IMG/VR virus record: IMGVR_UViG_3300032308_002578
Coordinates: 1-64,000 of that record
Reading direction: 5' to 3' (one strand)
DNA: 64,000 nucleotides
DNA from: a virus
Position numbers and translations under genes: made by a program. Each line of letters starts with the position of its first letter. The first letter of the stretch is position 1. Positions 4,232-64,000 of the stretch are shown here, in pieces. Below the pieces are notes generated by a model, which saw only the letters and a list, made by a program, of their open reading frames with translations, did not search any database and was not told where the DNA came from.

Positions 4232-4615
4232 ATGGAAAACGTAAAAGAAGCGGCGGAACAAGCGTACGCCACTATTGTGACGGAACTTGCTGCCCCGCAC
4301 TTCTTTGAGAAGTTGTCCGCTGCCGGCATCCGGCCGCGGTCTGAGCAGGAGGCCGCTGAACTGTGGTCGGCTGGTCAGAAACTTCACGTGCTCTACACGG
4401 CAGAGCAGGAAAAAGCGGCGGCTGCGCAAGTGTCGGGTCTGTCGGCTGCTAACAAGCAGTTAGACGCCGCGCTTGCAGCCGCCGGGCTCGCCCCGGCTGA
4501 GAAGGTTGCGTCGTTTGACGCCACTGCCTCCGCCGCTGCCGAGCAGCCGGAAATCGCGAATGCTGTCCTGACTCTGCAAGCTGCCGTTGCGGCATCGCTG
4601 CAGAGCGCAACATGA
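4232..4615 (+). CDS. head-associated hypothetical protein (Ala-rich, K-x-A motifs)
   Basis: SD AAGGAG; 127 aa; follows the capsid gene. Confidence 0.7.
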   Translation: MENVKEAAEQAYATIVTELAAPHFFEKLSAAGIRPRSEQEAAELWSAGQKLHVLYTAEQEKAAAAQVSGLSAANKQLDAALAAAGLAPAEKVASFDATASAAAEQPEIANAVLTLQAAVAASLQSAT

Positions 4616-55870: not shown

Positions 55871-56197
55871 ATGAAGCGTCGTCGAAACCGGTATAACTCA
55901 GACCGCCAGCCGTTCAATCAAAACGATGATCTCGACGACGATTTCATCGAAGAGGAATGGCAATTTGTCGACGACGAGGATGACGACGACGAGGACGACT
56001 TTGATTTCGACAGCGGCCATAAAACCGACTGGTACATCCCCGACGACAACGACGAAGATGAAGACGACGAAGACTACGAGGACGAAGATTACGAAAACGA
56101 AGACGACGACGCTGACGACGCCGCGTTTAACTGGGACGATGACGACGATGAGGACGACGACCCAGCGTACGAGGACAATTTCAACATAGACGAATAG
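55871..56197 (+). CDS. extremely acidic small protein
   Basis: Basic MKRRRNR N-terminus followed by a mostly D/E tract with spaced aromatic residues. Confidence 0.7.
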   Translation: MKRRRNRYNSDRQPFNQNDDLDDDFIEEEWQFVDDEDDDDEDDFDFDSGHKTDWYIPDDNDEDEDDEDYEDEDYENEDDDADDAAFNWDDDDDEDDDPAYEDNFNIDE

Positions 56198-56202
56198 GTG
56201 TC

Positions 56203-56682
56203 ATGCAAACATTTCTGCCGCTACCGAGATTTAAACATTCGGCGGCAGTTCTTGATAACAAACGACTCGGCAAACAACGGGTCGAATGCAAACAGATCTT
56301 GTTGTGTTTGGGTGTGCCAATTGGCGACCATACGCCAACGCCCGGCGGTTCGAAGTGGCGCAATCACCCAGCCGTGCGCATGTGGGCTGGCCATGAGATT
56401 GCCCTCGCGGCATACTCCATCGTGGTTTGCCGAGAATGGCGCCGGCGTGGCTTTCGCGACACGCTGCTCGCGCAGTTCATGGCCTGCTACGGCGTGCTGC
56501 GGCCGACAGTAACGCGCGTGGACTATCCGCCATGGTTTGGCGACTATGACTTGCACGCCAGCCACCGCAGCAATTTGTTACGCAAGGACTATCGCTTTTA
56601 TTCGCAGTTTGGATGGATGGAGCCCATCGACCTACCGTACATTTGGCCCGTGGAGAAAGAACATGCAGGCAGTGCTCATTGA
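56203..56682 (+). CDS. pyrimidine-dimer DNA glycosylase-like protein (MSMEG_6728/DenV-like)
   Basis: MQTFLP...LDNKRLGKQRVECKQIL...WRNHPAVRMW...SHRSNLLRKD signature. Confidence 0.85.
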   Translation: MQTFLPLPRFKHSAAVLDNKRLGKQRVECKQILLCLGVPIGDHTPTPGGSKWRNHPAVRMWAGHEIALAAYSIVVCREWRRRGFRDTLLAQFMACYGVLRPTVTRVDYPPWFGDYDLHASHRSNLLRKDYRFYSQFGWMEPIDLPYIWPVEKEHAGSAH

Positions 56683-57010
56683 CCCGTACAAAGAAGAAGT
56701 CACAAACGTCGAGTACAACGGCGACTATAAGCAGATCTATGACCACATTAAGGCTGACTGTTTTACGCTGGTGCGGCTACACGACAACGACGACGTATTC
56801 GTGGACGATGAGGGTCTGCTCAAAGTCACCAAGGACACGAAATTTTTCATGCTCAAGGACTACCCACAGCCGCTCGCGGGCTACGGGTTGATTCTCGGCA
56901 ACGACGACGAGGGCGAATCGGTAGCCGTGCACCACACTGCCGAATTCTACCGGCCCAAGGTACAATTCCTCGACGCGCAGATGGTGCGGGTGTTTGGTTA
57001 CTTTAAGTAA
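56663..57010 (+). CDS. DUF3846-like hypothetical protein
   Basis: SD GGAG; LIDP...FVDDEGLL...PLAG.GLILG.D.EGES pattern. Confidence 0.7.
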   Translation: MQAVLIDPYKEEVTNVEYNGDYKQIYDHIKADCFTLVRLHDNDDVFVDDEGLLKVTKDTKFFMLKDYPQPLAGYGLILGNDDEGESVAVHHTAEFYRPKVQFLDAQMVRVFGYFK

Positions 57011-57080
57011 TTGCTGATTTGTAATTTAGGTTGTAGTTACAACGTAAAACCGCTAAACAGTTTAAATGGCCCGCAAAAAC

Positions 57081-57151
57081 GCCCCCATAGCATAATGATA
57101 ATGCGGCTGATTTGTAATCAGCGGATGAAGGTTTGATTCCTTCTGGGGGCT
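57081..57151 (+). tRNA. tRNA-Thr (UGU), CCA not encoded
   Basis: Acceptor GCCCCCA/TGGGGGC, D stem GCAT/ATGC, anticodon arm GCTGA-TTTGTAA-TCAGC, T arm GAAGG-TTTGATT-CCTTC. Confidence 0.85.
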
Positions 57152-57191
57152 TTTAAACTGTTAAAATCATGGCACACACGGAGGTGTTGCC

Positions 57192-57635
57192 ATGAACGAG
57201 TTTACGATCAAGATCCGCGATATTAACAAGTTGAGCCTGATCGACGCGACGGCTATCTACAGCCGGCTGTCGTGGCCTGACTCCGGTAGCACGAGTTCCA
57301 TTCAGCGAGAATTGGAAAAACGCTACCTCACGCCAGAGCCCGGACCGCACCCGGAGATGGCCATTGCGCTGATCTGGCACAACAGCCTGCTCGTCGCGTG
57401 GGTCGGGAGCCGGCTGTGGCCGGAACGATTCAAGGGCGAGACGATCATGGCCCAGACTATCGAGTGCTTCACAGATCCGGAACTGCGACAGCGGGGATAT
57501 GCCGCGCTAGGCTTGCAAGCATTGCTTACGGCCGGATTTATTGATAGAGCTAAGCACGTCGCAGTCTACGCCAAGAACGTGGTCAAGATAGCCGAGCGCT
57601 GCGGCTGCAAAAGCGTGCTGCTGTGCGAGCCGTAA
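57192..57635 (+). CDS. GNAT-like acetyltransferase
   Basis: Acetyl-CoA motif A-like FTDPELRQRGYAALGLQAL; SD GGAGGT. Confidence 0.65.
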   Translation: MNEFTIKIRDINKLSLIDATAIYSRLSWPDSGSTSSIQRELEKRYLTPEPGPHPEMAIALIWHNSLLVAWVGSRLWPERFKGETIMAQTIECFTDPELRQRGYAALGLQALLTAGFIDRAKHVAVYAKNVVKIAERCGCKSVLLCEP

Positions 57636-57668
57636 ACAAACACACAGTTAACTTACTGTATGCAGTTT

Positions 57669-57699
57669 AAACCCGTGGCATGATTGCCGCGGGTTTTTT
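57669..57699 (+). terminator. intrinsic terminator upstream of the RAMP locus
   Basis: AAACCCGTGGCA-TGAT-TGCCGCGGGTTT followed by TTT. Confidence 0.8.
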
Positions 57700-57759
57700 A
57701 TTTACACAATTAGTTTGCGTATGTGAGTGTTTTTAACAATAACTAACAAAGGAAAAGAC

Positions 57760-58518
57760 ATGGCAACCATGCTCAAGGGTTCGAAGAAGACGCAAGCCAA
57801 GGCCAAGACGACAAAGACTGCCGCCAAAGAGCACCTCGGCCCCGATGACGATAAGGGCGATTTGGCAATTGCTGATCGCGTGGGCGTGACGATCACAGCG
57901 CCCAACTTCAAGACCGTGGAGATCACAATCCGCGGCACGGCGCCGTACGTGCAGTTGGCGTTCGGCAAGAAGGCGCGCGAAATGATGCGCGAGAAGCAGG
58001 CTGCCGGCTCGACCGCCGCCAAGGGCAAGAAGCGCGAAGCCAAGGACTTCGATGCGAACTTCAAGGAAGCCCAGCACGTCTCAACCAAGGGCTGGTGTGG
58101 CATCCCAGCCAGCGCCCTTCGTAACGCGCTGGTTGACTCCTGCGTGGTCGTGGGCTATCACAAGACCAAGGCGAAGAAGGCTATTTTCGTCGAGGCCGAC
58201 GGTTTCGACGCTGTCGAAGGCACGCCGCTCATCCGGTTGTACAATGACGGCAAGGGTAAGTTGGTAGACGCCAAGCCGAAGCACGTCGAGCACACCGTTC
58301 GCAACGCGACCGGCGTTGCCGATATCCGTGTTCGAGCGATGTTTGAGCAGTGGCAGGCCAAGGTCCGCGTGCGTTTTGATGCCGACATGTTCACGCCGGC
58401 CGACATTGCCAATCTCATGCTGCGCGCTGGTATGCAAGTCGGAATCGGCGAAGGCCGCGCAGATTCGCCCAATTCGTGCGGTATGGGCTGGGGTCATTTC
58501 GAGTGCGTGAAGGGTTAA
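57760..58518 (+). CDS. stand-alone Cas7/RAMP-like RNA-binding protein (Vipr-like)
   Basis: First strand VEITIRGTAPY, GIPASALRNAL helix motif and C-terminal glycine-rich loop GIGEGR...GMGWGHF are RAMP hallmarks; ATG 57760 after AAAGGA. Confidence 0.75.
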   Translation: MATMLKGSKKTQAKAKTTKTAAKEHLGPDDDKGDLAIADRVGVTITAPNFKTVEITIRGTAPYVQLAFGKKAREMMREKQAAGSTAAKGKKREAKDFDANFKEAQHVSTKGWCGIPASALRNALVDSCVVVGYHKTKAKKAIFVEADGFDAVEGTPLIRLYNDGKGKLVDAKPKHVEHTVRNATGVADIRVRAMFEQWQAKVRVRFDADMFTPADIANLMLRAGMQVGIGEGRADSPNSCGMGWGHFECVKG

Positions 58519-58537
58519 TTTAACAAGGAGAAATGTT

Positions 58538-59017
58538 ATGGGGCGTAAACGGCAAATGTCTTCCATCAAGGAAGAACTGACGCAGATTTTTCAAAAGCAC
58601 AACGGCAATCTTCCGCCCGAAGCCGTTGTCGAATTTGCGCGCAATAAAAACACCGCGTTGCACGCAGAGTTTGAGTGGGATGATACAGAAGCGGCGCATC
58701 AGTTTCGGCTAGTGCAGGCACGAAATATCATCCGACTGAACATAGACATCGTCGAAACGCCCAACGGCAATGTTCGCGTTCCCGTGTATGTGTCGCTTGT
58801 TTCAGACCGACGCAGCGGCCTCGGCTACCGGGCGCTCACAGACGTCATGAGCGACGCCGACATGCGTGCTCAGTTATTGCAACAGGCGATCGACGAGTTG
58901 CAGCGAGTTCGGCGCAAGTATGAATCGCTGCGCGAATTGGCGCCTGTGTTCTCGGCTTTAGATCGCGTCGCCCGCAACGCCAGCAGGCGGCCAACACGTC
59001 GCGCCGCTCGGGCTTAA
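58538..59017 (+). CDS. partner protein between the RAMP gene and the array
   Basis: SD AAGGAG; LPPEAVVEFARNKNTALHAEFEWDDTEAAHQFRLVQARNIIR, helical and Arg-rich C-terminus. Confidence 0.8.
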   Translation: MGRKRQMSSIKEELTQIFQKHNGNLPPEAVVEFARNKNTALHAEFEWDDTEAAHQFRLVQARNIIRLNIDIVETPNGNVRVPVYVSLVSDRRSGLGYRALTDVMSDADMRAQLLQQAIDELQRVRRKYESLRELAPVFSALDRVARNASRRPTRRAARA

Positions 59018-59022
59018 ATATT

Positions 59023-59630
59023 TAGACACGGCAGGCTTGGCAGGGCAACGCTAGGCTCGGCTACGCACGGCGCGGATCGGCAGGCGTGGAATGACGCTGC
59101 TCGGTTCGGCATGCCTAGGCATGGGTCGTTTTGGCTTGGCAGGTATGGCACGGCGAGGCGGGGCGACGAGCGGTGAGGTGTGGATAGCCAAGACTTGGTT
59201 CGGATCGGCAGGCTGGGTAAGGCACGGCGTGGACGCGCGAGCAGCGACATGGCGAGGCAGGCAGAGCAAGGCACGGCATGCTTTGGTGAGGATCGGTGTC
59301 GCTTAGACATGGCAGGCACGGACAGGCAAGGCGCGCTTTGGTAGGGTTTGGCTCGGCAAGGCAGGCTAGGCACGGCTCGTCTCGACGCGGCCAGATAGGC
59401 TCGGCAGGCGAGGTATGGCAAGGCCGGGAGCGCCCCGGCCGGGATAGACATGGCAGGAATGGCATGGCTGGGTTCGGCACGGCGCGGTACGGATGGGCTT
59501 TAGACATGGCAGGCGTGGACAGGCTAGGCGGGGAATGCCGGCGCGCGCAGACGCATAGACACGGCAGGCAGGGTTAGGCAGGGCGAGGAGAGGCCGGGAG
59601 TGGCTCGGCAAATCACGGCAGGCTCGGAAT
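59023..59630 (+). ncRNA. GGN-NN pentamer array of 11 units delimited by GGCA; putative guide-RNA array
   Basis: Manual parse: 79 of 107 pentamers start with GG and the last two bases vary; GGCA punctuation at 59030, 59079, 59138, 59207, 59256, 59311, 59360, 59403, 59452, 59508, 59563, 59617. Confidence 0.85.
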
Positions 59631-59640
59631 TACATAAATT

Positions 59641-59679
59641 AAACAGGGGGCGGTTATTAACGTAGCCGCCCCCTGTTTT
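59641..59679 (+). terminator. intrinsic terminator closing the array
   Basis: AAACAGGGGGCGGTTA / TAGCCGCCCCCTGTTT then T. Confidence 0.85.
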
Positions 59680-59690
59680 ACAATCACAGT

Positions 59691-59936
59691 ATGAAAAGAT
59701 ACCACGCTGAAAAGCACATCATCGACAGTCGCGTAAAAAAGTATAAGCAGATCGCAGGCTGGCTTGACCCGGCGGATACGCGGTTCCTGCCCGATGCGGG
59801 CCGTTTCCGCAAATCTATCCGCTGCTCAGGCTGCGGCCGGGCGCGGTGCCAATTGTGCCACCCGGAGAAGTTTCCGCGGCGTATTCCAACAATTAAAGAA
59901 CAACAGGCGCAGTATGACTGGCGCGATTACGAATAA
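59691..59936 (+). CDS. small Cys/His-containing hypothetical protein
   Basis: CSGC..ARCQLCHP motif. Confidence 0.65.
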   Translation: MKRYHAEKHIIDSRVKKYKQIAGWLDPADTRFLPDAGRFRKSIRCSGCGRARCQLCHPEKFPRRIPTIKEQQAQYDWRDYE

Positions 59937-59974
59937 ACCAGTCACGTTTTAACAACTAACTTTTTGGAGAATTC

Positions 59975-60286
59975 ATGCCTAACTTCGTAAACAACATCGT
60001 CCAAGCCTCGGGCCGGCTCGCCGATGCCGTAATGTCTGAGATGGCGTACGAGGACAACCGGCACAACGTCAAGATGCAGGTGATCGAGCGACTTATGGCC
60101 GGCGAGAACAAGTTGACCGGCAAGCCCCATTCGTTCAGTTCGGCCGAGACCGCGGCGGCCTCTGACCCGGCCTACACCGATTATCTTGAGCAGTTGCGCA
60201 ACGCCACCCGCGAGCGTATTCTCGCCAAGGGCGTCTATGACGCAGCCGTGGCTGCCGCCCGGCTGCAGGAGGTGGTCAGTGACTGA
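59975..60286 (+). CDS. hypothetical protein
   Basis: SD GGAG; 103 aa, helical. Confidence 0.7.
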   Translation: MPNFVNNIVQASGRLADAVMSEMAYEDNRHNVKMQVIERLMAGENKLTGKPHSFSSAETAAASDPAYTDYLEQLRNATRERILAKGVYDAAVAAARLQEVVSD

Positions 60287-61059: not shown

Positions 61060-61283
61060 TGGCGTTTCATGGAAAAGCCGGTGACCGCGTGCAGATGGTT
61101 TTCATGCCTAACGACCCCGAGCCTATTCCGGTTGGCACGACCGGCACCGTCGTTGGCGTTAACGATATGCCGTGGGGCCAAGATCGCATGACGCAGGTCA
61201 TGGTCAAATGGGATAACGGCCGCAACCTGTCGTGCATCTGCCCGCCAGACCATCTGGAAATCATTCCAGCCACGGCTGATTAG
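61056..61283 (+). CDS. DUF4314-like protein
   Basis: GDRV.M..M.NDP.PIPVGT.GTV..V...Q..VKWDNG..L pattern; SD GGAGG. Confidence 0.75.
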   Translation: MMAFHGKAGDRVQMVFMPNDPEPIPVGTTGTVVGVNDMPWGQDRMTQVMVKWDNGRNLSCICPPDHLEIIPATAD

Positions 61284-64000
61284 TATTGGAAGTAGCCGCT
61301 GCCAATAGCGTCGTCGGCCCAGTCTTCGCCCGGTGTCTGGGCGGCAACGGCCCGTTCCGTTACGCGGCCAATGCCGGCTAACTGCGCGAAGTTGGGCCAC
61401 GCGTCGTTAATGTGCCACGCGGCGGCACAGCCAATATTGACAGCCTGCGCGAAGTCATCGCTGAGCAGCGTATTTCGCGTGATTGTATAAATGTCGCCGC
61501 CCATACGAGACTCGGCTTTGTTTTCCACCAGCGCCAAGAAGTCGGCGATAAGTCCGGGCGAGTCTTGCGACGCCCAATCGTATTGGAAGAACCTGATCTG
61601 TTTTAACTTAATCGCCTGACAGGTGTAGAGCAACGACCGGGTCTTATCAAGACTGTAATGGGCCCGGTGATTAATCGGCGTCGGCGGCTTGTAAATCATC
61701 AAGTCCTGCGCGGCCGACCGGACAAGCCGCAGAGCCAGCACCCGGTCTAAATTAAAGCCAGCCTGCACCATGACTGTTTCGCGGACCGTGCCGGCACCGG
61801 TGTAATCGTGCGCGACAAAATCGCAATTAAACGTGTTCGACCACTTCATGCACTCAATGGCTTCGGCCAGATGGTCGCCGCCGATCAGCAGGCGTTTCGA
61901 CCAAATAACATCGATAGTGCCGTCCGGCCGAAAACCAAGTACGGCTACGACAGTAAACGAGATACCCTCTTCGCCACCGCCGCCCCAGTCGATGGCCAGA
62001 ATCCGATGTTTGTACTCCTGCAGGTGTTGGAAGCATTTTGGGTTAGGTTCTTTCTTGTTCTCCCAGTCGAGTAAACACGCCGCGCGCAGTTCTGTCTCGC
62101 TGATCAATTTCTGCCCGGCGTCAACAGACTCGCCCAAAACTTCGTTGTAGAACTGCGCCTGCGTCATGTTGCCGTAGCCTTCGCGCTTGAGCAGCAGCGT
62201 GTTCCATTTCTCGGGATCTGAGAAATGCAACGGCAGAATTAACTGCGGCACGTGATATCCGGCGAACTGCCAGCGGCGATCAGGGTGCCTGTGCACCCAA
62301 CGTCCGTGCCGCGGGCTGATAGGCTTGCGACATTTCGCGCAAATTGTGCCCGGATTCTTTTCACTAATGTGAATATTAAACGGGCCAATAATAGCGTCGA
62401 GGTCATGGTCGATAGATGGAATGTTCCAATACTTACAAGAGCGGCACGGGATAAACCATTCAGCCTGCGATGAACGTTTGTATAACCCCTCTAACGGGTT
62501 ATCTACGGATTTTGGCGTTCCTGTGAAATGGCTAATGGCATAGCGTGAATAACTCATCGTCTCTTGAATGATTGGAATATGATCCGGGTCCATGTCTTGA
62601 ATTTCGTCAAGCGCGATACGGTCAGCAGACACACCGCGGACACGATCTGCGTCGAGCAGCGCGAACGAGAACAGCATTAACGACTTGTTCTTAAAGCTGC
62701 GCTGCAATACAGAATTCTCAGTATCGCTCCCCGCCCACTGCGACTTGATGGGCGACTGATCAATGAATGGGCGCACGTAGTTGTTCGAGAATCTGCGGAT
62801 CTGCTCGTACAACGGCGTAACGTACAGAGTCTTGAAAAACGGAATCGAGTTCGCCACCACGATGCCGTGCGCCGCGAGCGAGGTTGAATTGTGATTTACA
62901 ATACCGTCGACGACGTAATTGTGCTCGCCGCTGACTTCGATGTCCCAGCACGGCAGCACGCCCAGCGGCTCGATCTTTTCGATTTTGTCCCAAATAATAT
63001 CCGGACTTGCGAGCCGCTCTAGTTCTGAAAGTTTTGGATGTTCGGGACAATGTTCTCGAAAATGCTCAATGTACTTTTTGAGTTTGGCGCGGGTCAACGC
63101 GTGCTTGGGTTTTAGACGCAGACCGCCGCTCAAAAGAGATTTGCCGTTTTGCGCCCAGCGAATACTCTCGGCAATCTCGCTGATTAATTCGCGAACTTCC
63201 AGCGGCACGGTGTCGCGGTTGTTGTTTTCAACCGCTTCAGGCAGCACTACAGGCGGTTTTCCCGGCACTTGGAATTCATCAAGAAAACGACGCCAGCCAT
63301 CTCTTGTTTCGACGTGCACGATGTACGCATCGTTGCAGTGTACGCGTGCGCCGTTTTTATCGCGGTAACCAGTTGGTCGGACTTTGATTGTGGCCGGAAT
63401 GCCGAACTTTAACAGCATCGCTTTGATATCAAACGCCAGATCTCGCGATATAGTGCAATATGTGATCGCTGGCGCCCGCTGCTTGCCGCTAGCGGGGCGG
63501 ATCATACCATCCGTTGCCCATAAGCGGCTCAAAAACAGCGCGGCGTCACCGCGCGACAGATCAAAAACCCAATCGGGCAGGCTTTTTTCTAACGCGTTTT
63601 TACCGTACAGCCTGTCTTCTTCCAGCCAGCCGCGAATCACACCGCCACGACTCTTTGAGATGTCGATACGTACGGCATTCGTTTTGACTTTGCTGACAAA
63701 CGTAGCGGGGCTACCCTGCACACGCGTGATTACCCCGTTCACCTCGTTTATCACTTCAGCGCTGTCTGTTGTAATATTAATTGCGTTAGTCACGCATCCG
63801 TCACCGATAAGATACGCCGTGATGATGATGCGATCACGATCCACGCGTCGATCGCCGAACGTGCCGCCTTTACGCACTGCGCAGACGCGGTCGCCAACCC
63901 GTAAGTTCGCACCGGTTGTCCAGCCGCTGACTTTGAGTAATGGATGCGTGTCGGCCAGTTCGATCACGGCACCCGTTCGCGTCGTAACTCGGTAGACGTG
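61280..64000 (-). CDS. terminase large subunit (GpA-like), 5'-truncated, intein-containing
   Basis: Extein begins STS (Walker A end), Walker B RIALDEIQD, TGTPK coupling motif, CxxC pairs, RNase H-like LAIDWGGG; frame open to the window end. Confidence 0.9.
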   Translation of the reverse strand, partial: HVYRVTTRTGAVIELADTHPLLKVSGWTTGANLRVGDRVCAVRKGGTFGDRRVDRDRIIITAYLIGDGCVTNAINITTDSAEVINEVNGVITRVQGSPATFVSKVKTNAVRIDISKSRGGVIRGWLEEDRLYGKNALEKSLPDWVFDLSRGDAALFLSRLWATDGMIRPASGKQRAPAITYCTISRDLAFDIKAMLLKFGIPATIKVRPTGYRDKNGARVHCNDAYIVHVETRDGWRRFLDEFQVPGKPPVVLPEAVENNNRDTVPLEVRELISEIAESIRWAQNGKSLLSGGLRLKPKHALTRAKLKKYIEHFREHCPEHPKLSELERLASPDIIWDKIEKIEPLGVLPCWDIEVSGEHNYVVDGIVNHNSTSLAAHGIVVANSIPFFKTLYVTPLYEQIRRFSNNYVRPFIDQSPIKSQWAGSDTENSVLQRSFKNKSLMLFSFALLDADRVRGVSADRIALDEIQDMDPDHIPIIQETMSYSRYAISHFTGTPKSVDNPLEGLYKRSSQAEWFIPCRSCKYWNIPSIDHDLDAIIGPFNIHISEKNPGTICAKCRKPISPRHGRWVHRHPDRRWQFAGYHVPQLILPLHFSDPEKWNTLLLKREGYGNMTQAQFYNEVLGESVDAGQKLISETELRAACLLDWENKKEPNPKCFQHLQEYKHRILAIDWGGGGEEGISFTVVAVLGFRPDGTIDVIWSKRLLIGGDHLAEAIECMKWSNTFNCDFVAHDYTGAGTVRETVMVQAGFNLDRVLALRLVRSAAQDLMIYKPPTPINHRAHYSLDKTRSLLYTCQAIKLKQIRFFQYDWASQDSPGLIADFLALVENKAESRMGGDIYTITRNTLLSDDFAQAVNIGCAAAWHINDAWPNFAQLAGIGRVTERAVAAQTPGEDWADDAIGSGYFQY
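62888..64000 (-). mobile_element. intein with LAGLIDADG homing endonuclease
   Basis: Block B VYRVTTRTGAVIELADTHPLL, LAGLIDADG motifs AYLIGDG and SRLWATDG, C-terminal WDIEVSGEHNYVVDGIVNHN followed by Ser. Confidence 0.92.

What the first reader, a model, noticed from the sequence alone, without database searches (positions are those of the whole stretch)
59023..59630. Grammar of the array: 11 guide-sized units and their decoded variable dinucleotides
Seen: GGCA 4-mers split the array into units of 49, 59, 69, 49, 55, 49, 43, 49, 56, 55 and 54 nt, seven of them exactly 4+5n. Five boundaries carry TAGACAY before GGCAGG (59023, 59304, 59445, 59501, 59556), a possible processing signal. NN strings: U1 TT AG AA TA TC TA AC GC TC; U2 GT AT GC TC TC AT TA AT TC TT TT; U3 AT AC GA GG GA GC GA GT TA AA TT TC TC; U4 TG AA AC GT CG GA GC AT GA; U5 AG AA AC AT TT GA TC GT TT; U6 AC CA AA GC TT AG TT TC AA; U7 TA AC TC TC GC CA; U8 GA AT AA CG GC CC CG TA; U9 AT AT TG TC AC GC AC TG TT; U10 GT CA TA GG AT GG GC GA AT; U11 AG TA AG GA GA CG GT TC AA. 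All differ, so each unit carries its own information. Some non-GG pentamers create short hairpins (59187-59199, 59422-59440). Inference: if targets are read as NN-x-NN-x, the skipped base could fall on codon wobble positions and resist synonymous escape.
Basis: partly seen in the sequence, partly recalled or inferred. Interest (0 to 1): 0.88.

Follow-up and report, generated by a model that had tools for sequence, protein, structure and literature searches.

The report
Phage VIPR guide-RNA array (GGY/NN pentamers)

Summary
All 11 dinucleotide strings and the five TAGACAY-GGCAGG sites are as written. The array follows two genes on the same strand. A profile of the first matches the solved SUSP1 Vipr protein (E 6e-7). 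The second is a conserved partner. The trio recurs in 136 of 145 related loci, including Mycobacterium phages. This is a VIPR system (bioRxiv 2026.04.26.720920): GGY/NN pentamer guide RNAs that bind DNA as NN-x-NN-x, with x usually on codon wobble positions. The GGCA punctuation fits that paper's "staggered arrays". I could not show expression, because no RNA run holds the stretch. One guide, U10, matches 89 IMG/VR contigs exactly under the one-base-skip rule. All 80 sites examined are in frame, and 79 lie at the C-terminus of one virion-module protein family. The other five guides scanned gave 0-2 chance-level hits. A related array has a perfect in-frame 20/20 hit on a rival phage's Sak4-like gene, with none in controls. 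Verdict: real, correctly read, and a new member of a known kind.

The parts
57669..57696 (+). Terminator-like hairpin that closes the preceding genes and forms the left edge of the cassette
   Evidence: 12-bp stem with 7 GC pairs followed by a T run
57760..58518 (+). vipr gene, the RAMP-type guide-RNA-binding protein. It is 252 aa from the ATG used by database homologues. The ORF with a GTG start begins at 57727.
   Evidence: phrog_4652. 2344 homologues, none with a Pfam domain. Profile A3 matches PDB 36pp_D 'SUSP1 Vipr protein' at E 6e-7 over the thumb and G-loop stretch. The narrower profile A1 gives E 0.0012.
58538..59017 (+). vap-like accessory gene, 159 aa
   Evidence: phrog_15946. A homologue lies beside vipr in 73 of 82 loci. 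Same gene pair in Mycobacterium phage Brocalys gp45/gp46. No Pfam, NCBIfam or PDB match.
59023..59630 (+). vrRNA array: 11 GGCA-delimited guide units plus a 14-nt remnant. U1 59030-59078, U2 59079-59137, U3 59138-59206, U4 59207-59255, U5 59256-59310, U6 59311-59359, U7 59360-59402, U8 59403-59451, U9 59452-59507, U10 59508-59562, U11 59563-59616, remnant 59617-59630.
   Evidence: The same punctuation holds across the clade: 712 of 871 four-mers are GGCA, with spacing peaks at 49, 54, 44 and 59 nt.
59508..59562 (+). Guide unit U10, the only unit with a candidate natural target
   Evidence: Its 9 NN joined by one wildcard match 89 IMG/VR stretches exactly. In the 80 loci kept, 80 of 80 sites are in frame on the coding strand. 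79 of 80 lie at the C-terminal motif VQYGIGA(D/E)I of one ~310-aa protein family.
59641..59678 (+). Strong terminator hairpin that ends the cassette
   Evidence: 17-bp stem, -30.8 kcal/mol, z -7.37, 0 of 200 shuffles fold as well, followed by TTTT

Best explanation
The stretch is the guide-RNA (vrRNA) array of a phage-encoded VIPR system (Viral Interference Programmable Repeat). The cassette 57697-59680 is bounded by two terminator hairpins. It holds vipr, a vap-like accessory gene and the array, all on the + strand.

The mechanism below is inferred from the published type II systems and was not shown here. The array is transcribed. Vipr protomers bind one pentamer each, burying GG plus the third base and presenting the two variable bases. 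The filament pairs those NN with double-stranded DNA that reads NN-x-NN-x, forming a gapped R-loop. This blocks transcription of a rival mobile element.

The one-base-short GGCA unit (Y-N-GG instead of Y-NN-GG) shifts the register by one. It marks where one guide ends and the next begins, as in the 'staggered arrays' of the VIPR paper. This gives about 11 guides of 6-13 dinucleotides.

Because two paired bases and one skipped base follow codon periodicity, guides aimed in frame at conserved peptide motifs tolerate synonymous change. U10 probably aims at the C-terminal motif of a virion-module (probable capsid) gene of an abundant family of ~30-37-kb aquatic phages. The targets of the other ten guides are unknown.
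For: Homology. A profile of the upstream gene's family matches the solved SUSP1 Vipr at E 6e-7. SUSP1 R138 (thumb) aligns with the near-invariant R192. The G-loop D177-W178-R179 aligns with E231-G232-R233. The Mycobacterium-phage member keeps GVGDWRP.

Conserved module. phrog_4652, phrog_15946 and a same-strand pentamer array occur together here and in Mycobacterium phage Brocalys, where the array lies upstream of the two genes. 80 of 82 loci have a same-strand array beside vipr, and 136 of 145 loci when the GTDB loci are added.

Grammar. GG is fixed, the third base is C/T/A and almost never G, and NN has high entropy. Across 143 loci the third base is C 80%, T 10%, A 9.5%.

Punctuation is clade-wide. 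129 of 136 loci with arrays carry four-mers, and 78% of 657 spacings are 4+5n.

No self-target. In the phage's own 87.75-kb genome no guide beats its shuffles at skip 0, 1 or 2, as the paper reports for its systems.

Skip rule in this clade. 322 guides were scanned against 1.09 Mb of masked loci. Skip 1 gives one 20/20 hit, in frame on the Walker A codons of a Sak4-like gene next to a rival's VIPR array. The guide-bearing phage's own orthologue scores 17/20. Skips 0, 2 and 3, three shuffles and the reversed guide all stay at or below 0.94.

This window. U10 gives 89 exact stretches, against 0, 0, 2, 1 and 0 for U3, U2, U4, U5 and U11, and 0 for a backwards control. The 80 sites examined show 22 DNA variants that differ at all 8 skipped bases.

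Codon-phase likelihood. 7 of 11 guides fit codon positions 1-2 best. Summed log2 likelihoods are -389.8 against -404.8 and -428.0.

Evolution by cassette. A 198-kb relative shares U1, U3, U4, U5, U7, U8 and U11 and differs at the other units. One metagenome contig replaces 163 nt with 85 nt.
Against: No expression or processing data exist, so transcription, RNA ends and binding to Vipr are all inferred.

The PDB match aligns only 47 residues.

18 of 101 pentamers are GGA, whereas type II Vipr excludes purines at that position, and the G-loop Trp is Gly here. The recognition details must therefore differ.

There is no 3' tail or pseudoknot like that of type II vrRNAs.

Ten of eleven guides have no target. 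U4's two hits fall in unrelated genes (a DHFR gene and a portal gene). U5 and the 10-NN U3 pattern gave one hit each. These counts are what chance gives.

U10's 89 hits are one family, so they count as one event. No other guide of this phage, of its two relatives, or of 352 clade guides converges on those loci. Those loci have a median GC of 0.40 against about 0.57 for this phage. Their nearest cultured relative infects a marine flavobacterium. A shared host is therefore doubtful.

Half of U10's pentamers (5 of 10) lack GG.

The codon-phase result is marginal: about p 0.05 by my own hand calculation from the calibration.
Confidence: 0.9

Rival explanations
1. It is a VIPR array, but the reader's GGCA-delimited units are not the mature guides. 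The real vrRNAs would be cut elsewhere, for example at the five TAGACAY sites. That would give RNAs of about 281, 141, 56, 55 and 80 nt, or RNAs that span several units.
For: TAGACAY-GGCAGG recurs five times here and is kept in the 198-kb relative. GACAT-GGCA-GGC also occurs in Mycobacterium phage arrays. Four units are not 4+5n, so their register is ambiguous. The staggered arrays of the paper were not among the architectures it confirmed by sRNA-seq.
Against: Across 136 loci the spacing of four-mers peaks sharply at 44-59 nt, which is 8-11 pentamers. That is close to the 9-16 repeats of proven vrRNAs. GACAC precedes only 20 of 871 four-mers. The perfect 20/20 hit in the clade and the U10 hits both use exactly one GGCA-to-GGCA unit.
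Confidence: 0.15
2. It is a periodic G-rich RNA or DNA element that acts without guiding. Examples are a sponge for a ring-shaped RNA-binding protein (TRAP- or CsrA-like), a run of two-tetrad G-quadruplexes, or an R-loop-prone origin.
For: It has GG every 5 nt on the sense strand and 43% G. It has no significant secondary structure. No target was found for ten guides.
Against: The flanking gene is homologous to a protein solved with this kind of RNA. NN strings are conserved between orthologous units while the scaffold drifts. Exact in-frame matches appear only under the one-base skip. A sponge or quadruplex would not need unit-specific dinucleotides.
Confidence: 0.04
3. It is protein-coding or a neutral slippage satellite. 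Long ORFs cross the array, and Mycobacterium phage Donkeykong annotates a CDS (gp48) over its copy.
For: ORFs of 71-145 aa cross the array on both strands. Donkeykong gp48 is annotated over its array.
Against: The array has no 3-nt periodicity (P3 0.4, against 18.3 and 5.1 in the two genes). Four-mers shift the frame every ~50 nt. Relatives swap whole units of lengths that are not multiples of three. Brocalys leaves the same stretch unannotated. A pure satellite would not keep GG while varying NN in 136 loci from many phyla.
Confidence: 0.01

Closest known systems
Type II VIPR of Escherichia phage SUSP1 and the Pseudomonas fulva prophage (bioRxiv 10.64898/2026.04.26.720920 and .720927)
   Same: A phage-borne two-gene locus (vipr plus an accessory gene) with a same-strand array of GG(Y)NN pentamers. 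The proteins are homologous (E 6e-7). The thumb Arg and the G-loop Arg are kept. There is no self-target. One-base-skip, in-frame matches to other phages' genes are found.
   Different: Units are 43-69 nt with no conserved 3' tail or pseudoknot, and they are separated only by a GGCA register slip. SUSP1 has ~100-nt vrRNAs with tails. The third base is A in 18 of 101 pentamers. The G-loop reads E-G-R instead of D-W-R. The accessory protein shows no detectable match to anything solved. The host is unknown.
'Staggered vrRNA arrays' of the same paper (legend of fig. S18, seen)
   Same: Guides abut with a one-nucleotide overlap or slip, so the end of one marks the start of the next. The GGCA (Y-N-GG) four-mers do this here and in 129 of 136 related loci that have arrays.
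   Different: I saw only the legend. The figure and data S4 are closed, so I cannot say whether this clade is the one shown or which of types I-VII it belongs to. The paper lists this architecture among those not confirmed by sRNA-seq.
Class 1 CRISPR-Cas (Cas7 backbone filaments on crRNA)
   Same: A RAMP-type protein polymerises on a guide RNA, and a thumb interrupts pairing at regular intervals (every 6th base in class 1). This comparison is drawn in the papers read.
   Different: There are no repeat-spacer units, and no cas1, cas2 or nuclease gene in the cassette. The guide is non-contiguous (2 of every 5 RNA bases pair with 2 of every 3 DNA bases). The system is carried by the phage.
Mycobacterium phages of genus Cheoctovirus (Brocalys, Donkeykong and others)
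   Same: The same three parts are present: phrog_4652, phrog_15946 and a GGCNN array with GACAT-GGCA-GGC punctuation. The Vipr proteins are 31% identical.
   Different: The array lies upstream of the genes. The third base is C in 83 of 85 pentamers. The G-loop is D-W-R as in SUSP1. The records call the genes hypothetical, and one annotates a CDS over the array.

Membership tests
VIPR system | A Vipr protein (RAMP homologue) encoded next to the array | tested here: met
   Profile A3 matches PDB 36pp_D 'SUSP1 Vipr protein' at E 6e-7, 32.5 bits, with 47 residues aligned and the envelope covering residues 1-188 of the 202-residue chain. Profile A1 gives E 0.0012.
VIPR system | RAMP fold: RRM core, glycine-rich loop and thumb | tested here: inconclusive
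   An invariant G-rich loop, G-x-Q-V-G-I-G-E-G-R-P, and the aligned thumb Arg are present.
VIPR system | vrRNA region of tandem pentamers with a fixed GGY and a variable NN | tested here: met
   Of 101 pentamers, 78 start with GG, 62 are GGY and 15 are GGA. NN shows 15 different dinucleotides with entropy 1.86 and 1.95 bits. The strict Y is relaxed to 'not G'. The paper allows related consensus motifs.
VIPR system | Array on the same strand beside vipr, conserved among relatives | tested here: met
   80 of 82 loci and 136 of 145 loci. One of the two blanks, L036, ends 49 nt after its vap match.
VIPR system | A vap accessory gene | tested here: inconclusive
   A conserved 150-160-aa partner (phrog_15946) is present in 73 of 82 loci. 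Whether it is one of vap1-6 cannot be told, because the figures and supplements are closed. It has no family or PDB match.
VIPR system | vrRNAs are expressed and co-purify with Vipr | not testable with these tools
   No run on record as RNA holds the stretch.
VIPR system | Targets follow the one-base-skip rule (NN-x-NN), mostly in frame in other mobile elements | tested here: inconclusive
   For this window, 1 of 6 guides scanned (U10) gives an 89-contig in-frame family hit. The other five give 0-2 hits each. For the clade, one perfect 20/20 hit appears under skip 1 only.
VIPR system | No self-targeting | tested here: met
   The best skip-1 match in the phage's own genome is at or below 15 of 18. 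U9's 15/18 is one above its shuffles' maximum of 14. All other guides lie within their shuffles.
VIPR type II (SUSP1-like) | An invariant structured 3' tail (pseudoknot) after 9-16 repeats | tested here: not met
   Units abut directly. No conserved tail is present, and the unit folds are no better than shuffles. It is therefore not filed as type II.
CRISPR array | Direct repeats of ~25-40 nt alternating with spacers, with cas genes nearby | tested here: not met
   The period is 5 nt, not 60-79 nt. Rfam gives no CRISPR repeat family over 58400-60000. The seven ORFs between 56203 and 60286 that I scanned have no Cas family in Pfam.

The most novel reading that the evidence does not exclude
The array is a catalogue of conserved peptide motifs of rival phages, not of satellites or prophages. 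Each ~50-nt guide would be aimed in frame at an invariant motif of an essential gene of an unrelated phage family. U10 would aim at the C-terminal VQYGIGA(D/E)I of a probable capsid protein carried by at least 79 aquatic phage contigs. A related array aims at the Walker A loop of a Sak4-like gene. On this reading a single one-base register slip (GGCA) is the whole punctuation that partitions one transcript into a dozen guides, with no tail, ribozyme or nuclease. The cassette also hops between genome positions: it shares 83-84% DNA identity with a phage whose other genes are mostly 40-75% identical at protein level.
Probability: 0.35. Interest if true: 0.6.

Novelty: new member of a known kind. 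Interest (0 to 1): 0.42.

Why it matters
VIPR was described only in April 2026, and only type II systems from E. coli and Pseudomonas phages have been worked out. This window adds an intact tail-less 'staggered' array of 11 guides in a large freshwater phage. It belongs to a very widespread clade: more than 2,300 homologues, spread from Mycobacterium phages to contigs in MAGs labelled Planctomycetota, Cyanobacteria and candidate phyla. It offers concrete tests. Does a one-base register slip suffice to delimit guides? Can a Vipr with an E-G-R loop accept GGA? Does a guide against a conserved capsid motif silence an unrelated phage? It also shows that a reader working from sequence alone can recover the non-contiguous code. 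It does not open a new category.

Tried and rejected
Rfam search over 58400-60000 gave only a sub-threshold Termite-leu match on the terminator.

Two literature searches on pentanucleotide repeats in phages found nothing on point. The PDB hit gave the name that led to the papers.

My early ideas were a TRAP- or CsrA-type sponge, G-quadruplex runs, an R-loop origin, a pac site and a pentapeptide-coding repeat. I dropped them once the Vipr homology and the module conservation were seen.

No fold search was made.

The closest relatives (85-92% identical Vipr) could not be fetched. L003 (84%) and L004 (81%) were used instead.

No RNA holder was listed for the stretch. Only DNA contigs were laid.

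The ESM Atlas gave only unnamed viral clusters for Vipr and for a vap homologue.

Target searches that found nothing above chance:
- The phage's own genome and 0.5 Mb of related loci.
- The whole 198-kb and 73-kb relatives, in both directions.
- U3 with up to 3 mismatches in 5 records and in 401 genomes of the phylum of the closest MAG, with controls also 0.
- Exact IMG/VR scans for the 10-NN U3 pattern, U2 and U11, each 0 hits.
- U4 gave 2 hits, in a DHFR gene and a portal gene. U5 gave 1 hit.
- Metagenome scans: the 13-NN U3 pattern gave 0 hits. The 10-NN pattern gave 1 hit that does not extend.
- No other guide converges on the four hit loci L146-L149 or on the U10 target loci.

The host could not be fixed. 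The closest Vipr in a named genome is 70% identical, in a Planctomycetaceae MAG contig. The U10 target family's nearest cultured relative is a Nonlabens (flavobacterial) phage at 31.6%.

Supplementary files of the VIPR papers (tables S2 and S3, data S3 and S4, figs S16-S18) are closed. They may already list this clade, its type and its vap.
Full report
**What is there.** The stretch 59023-59630 lies on the + strand directly after two genes. It ends 10 nt before a very strong terminator hairpin at 59641-59678 (-30.8 kcal/mol, z -7.37). Read on GG anchors it is a chain of 94 units. Of these, 60 are exactly 5 nt and 12 are 4 nt, and all 12 four-mers are GGCA.

Seven of the eleven are 4+5n. The five TAGACAY-GGCAGG sites are at the stated places. 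All eleven dinucleotide strings are correct to the letter.

Position 3 is C 65, A 18, T 17, G 1. Positions 4 and 5 are close to random, at 1.86 and 1.95 bits. The signal has a period of 5, not 3. It occurs nowhere else in the 87,750-nt phage genome on either strand.

**How it was identified.** A distant blastn search of the region against cultured phages hit Mycobacterium phages of the genus Cheoctovirus over the array itself. Reading those loci showed the same GGCNN chain, with the same GACAT-GGCA-GGC punctuation.

In Brocalys the array is followed by gp45 and gp46, which belong to phrog_4652 and phrog_15946. These are the same two families as the two genes that precede the array in the window. 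A three-part module is therefore shared by phages of very distant hosts.

The first gene has 2344 homologues and no Pfam domain. A profile of 34 of them hit one solved structure, 36pp chain D, 'SUSP1 Vipr protein', at E 0.0012. A more diverse profile of 29 sequences raised this to E 6e-7.

That name led to three preprints and one further paper. From bioRxiv 10.64898/2026.04.26.720920 I read the abstract, the whole Results, four Methods sections and passages of the figure legends. From 10.64898/2026.04.26.720927 I read the abstract and the first part of the Results. From 10.64898/2026.10.15.759431 I read the abstract and one Methods section. From 10.64898/2026.10.21.760802 I read passages only.

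**What the papers establish.** VIPR systems are mostly phage-borne loci with a vipr gene (a RAMP homologue) and an accessory vap gene. They also carry vrRNAs made of 9-16 repeats in which GGY alternates with hypervariable NN. One Vipr protomer binds each repeat and buries GGY. The NN bases pair with DNA that reads NN-x-NN-x.

Natural targets are mostly coding sequences of rival phages or satellites, with x on the wobble position, and there is no self-targeting. Seven types are described. Their array forms include 'staggered arrays' in which one vrRNA ends where the next begins, with a one-nucleotide overlap.

**Membership.** The Vipr homology is by sequence only. The alignment covers the thumb and the G-loop. 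SUSP1 R138 aligns with the near-invariant R192 of the window's protein. D177-W178-R179 aligns with E231-G232-R233. The Mycobacterium-phage protein keeps G-V-G-D-W-R-P.

The module is conserved. 80 of 82 loci with a Vipr homologue have a same-strand pentamer array beside the genes, and 73 of 82 have the accessory gene. With 63 further loci from named genomes, 136 of 145 have arrays.

The GGCA punctuation is a property of the whole clade. 129 of those 136 loci have four-mers, and 712 of 871 four-mers are GGCA. The spacing between them peaks at 49 (92 cases), 54 (78), 44 (67) and 59 nt (49). 78% of the 657 spacings are 4+5n.

TAGACAY is not general. GACAC is the pentamer before only 20 of 871 four-mers.

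The system is not type II. It has no 3' tail, and the units do not fold better than shuffles. I cannot name its type because the figures and supplements are closed.

**Variation.** A complete 198-kb phage with direct terminal repeats (G004) has a Vipr that is 84% identical. Its array shares seven of the window's units and differs at the others, and it has extra units.

Over six aligned orthologous units the changes fall on pentamer positions 1 to 5 as 2, 2, 5, 1 and 3. That is 9 of 172 scaffold sites and 4 of 114 NN sites. The dinucleotides are kept while the third base drifts between C and T. This is what purifying selection on guide content predicts.

Metagenome contigs show the same pattern. 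There are single changes at both scaffold and NN sites, and one contig replaces 163 nt (59338-59500) with 85 other letters.

The two phages are syntenic at protein level. 130 of 212 ORFs have a hit, most at 40-75% identity. Only 7.2% of the window's genome aligns as DNA. The cassette is among the best-conserved parts (83-84% DNA identity), and it sits at a different place in each genome. It is bounded by terminator hairpins on both sides. It behaves as a mobile cassette.

**Targets.** I used the published scan: an ungapped match of the NN positions only, with shuffled-guide nulls.

There is no self-target at skip 0, 1 or 2. There is no cross-target between this phage and its two relatives.

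U3 with up to three mismatches found nothing in 5 records. It also found nothing in 401 genomes of the phylum of the closest MAG.

Exact one-base-skip scans of IMG/VR gave these counts:

| Pattern | Stretches with an exact match |
|---|---|
| U3 (10 NN) | 0 |
| U2 | 0 |
| U4 | 2 |
| U5 | 1 |
| U11 | 0 |
| U4 read backwards (control) | 0 |

U4's two hits lie in a DHFR gene and a portal gene of unrelated contigs. These counts are at chance level.

U10 gave 89 stretches. In the 80 loci kept:
- Every site is on the coding strand with the first paired base on codon position 1.
- 79 of the 80 lie in one family of 307-320-aa proteins, at the C-terminal motif VQYGIGA(D/E)I.
- There are 22 DNA variants, which differ at all eight skipped bases.

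The family is phrog_11320, with a weak match to a virion structural family. Its nearest cultured relative is gene 2 of Nonlabens phage P12024L, which lies near the portal gene.

Several cautions apply to the U10 result. The 89 hits are one family and so one event. By my own rough estimate, which is not a computed result, a random 18-base pattern would land on so large a family well under 1% of the time. No second guide converges on these contigs. Their median GC is 0.40 against about 0.57 for this phage. Half of U10's pentamers are degenerate. I rate it as a candidate target, at about even odds.

Two further results bear on the reading rule. A likelihood test with this phage's own codon usage assigns 7 of 11 guides to codon positions 1-2, close to the 58% expected for true in-frame strings. 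The summed likelihood favours that phase by 15 and 38 bits.

In an all-against-all scan, 322 GGCA-delimited guides from the clade were run against 1.09 Mb of their own loci with the arrays masked. The one-base skip gave one perfect 20/20 match. Skips 0, 2 and 3, three shuffles and the reversed guides never passed 0.94.

That match is in frame on the Walker A codons (YGQPGVGKTT) of a Sak4-like gene just downstream of another phage's VIPR array. The guide-bearing phage's own orthologue differs at three paired bases. The rule therefore holds in this clade, outside type II.

**Verdict.** It is a VIPR array, a kind of system in print since April 2026, so it is a new member of a known kind.

What is new is modest:
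- an intact staggered, tail-less array in a large freshwater phage;
- clade-wide evidence for the GGCA register slip as the unit boundary;
- a relaxed third base together with an E-G-R loop;
- cassette mobility;
- one candidate target in a capsid-module gene of an unrelated phage family.

Expression, processing and binding remain untested.

Noticed in passing
L001 2452-2838 (Mycobacterium phage Donkeykong gp48); L002 2430-2670 (Brocalys): Cheoctovirus phages carry the same VIPR module; 27 of the 28 phage records hit by tblastn are Mycobacterium phages. Donkeykong annotates a 'hypothetical protein' CDS over the pentamer array, which is probably not a gene. The vipr and vap homologues are labelled hypothetical.
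   Followed up: partly
L019 ~4395-4449 (guide) and L016 2611-2639 (target): A guide of one uncultured phage matches 20 of 20 paired bases, in frame, on the Walker A codons of the Sak4-like gene next to another phage's VIPR array. Its own orthologue matches 17 of 20. A guide of L017 matches the same gene at 18 of 20 in three loci.
   Followed up: yes
window 56683-59960 against G004 (L150-L159): The VIPR cassette lies in an accessory island that also holds a DUF3846 gene, a weak GNAT-like gene and a small Cys-rich ORF. The island sits between genes whose homologues are adjacent in the 198-kb relative. In that relative the cassette sits about 84 kb away.
   Followed up: partly
window 59691-59936 (+): An 81-aa ORF with two Cys pairs (C-x2-C ... 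C-x2-C) lies directly after the cassette terminator. It has no family match and no homologue in the 198-kb relative. A link to the cassette was not tested.
   Followed up: no
window 55871-56197 (+): A 108-aa ORF made up mostly of Asp and Glu runs. This composition recalls DNA-mimic anti-restriction proteins; that comparison is recalled and was not tested.
   Followed up: no
window 56203-56682 (+): Pyrimidine dimer DNA glycosylase domain (Pfam PF03013, E 1.2e-18), about 1 kb upstream of the cassette.
   Followed up: no
window 61280-64000 (-): A long ORF (over 900 aa, running off the window) that I took by eye to be a large terminase interrupted by an intein-like insert. No family search was run on it.
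   Followed up: no
window 59056, 59377, 59538, 59591, 59600; 59338-59500: Metagenome contigs of other samples carry single-base variants in the array, at both scaffold and NN sites. One contig swaps 163 nt for 85 nt.
   Followed up: partly
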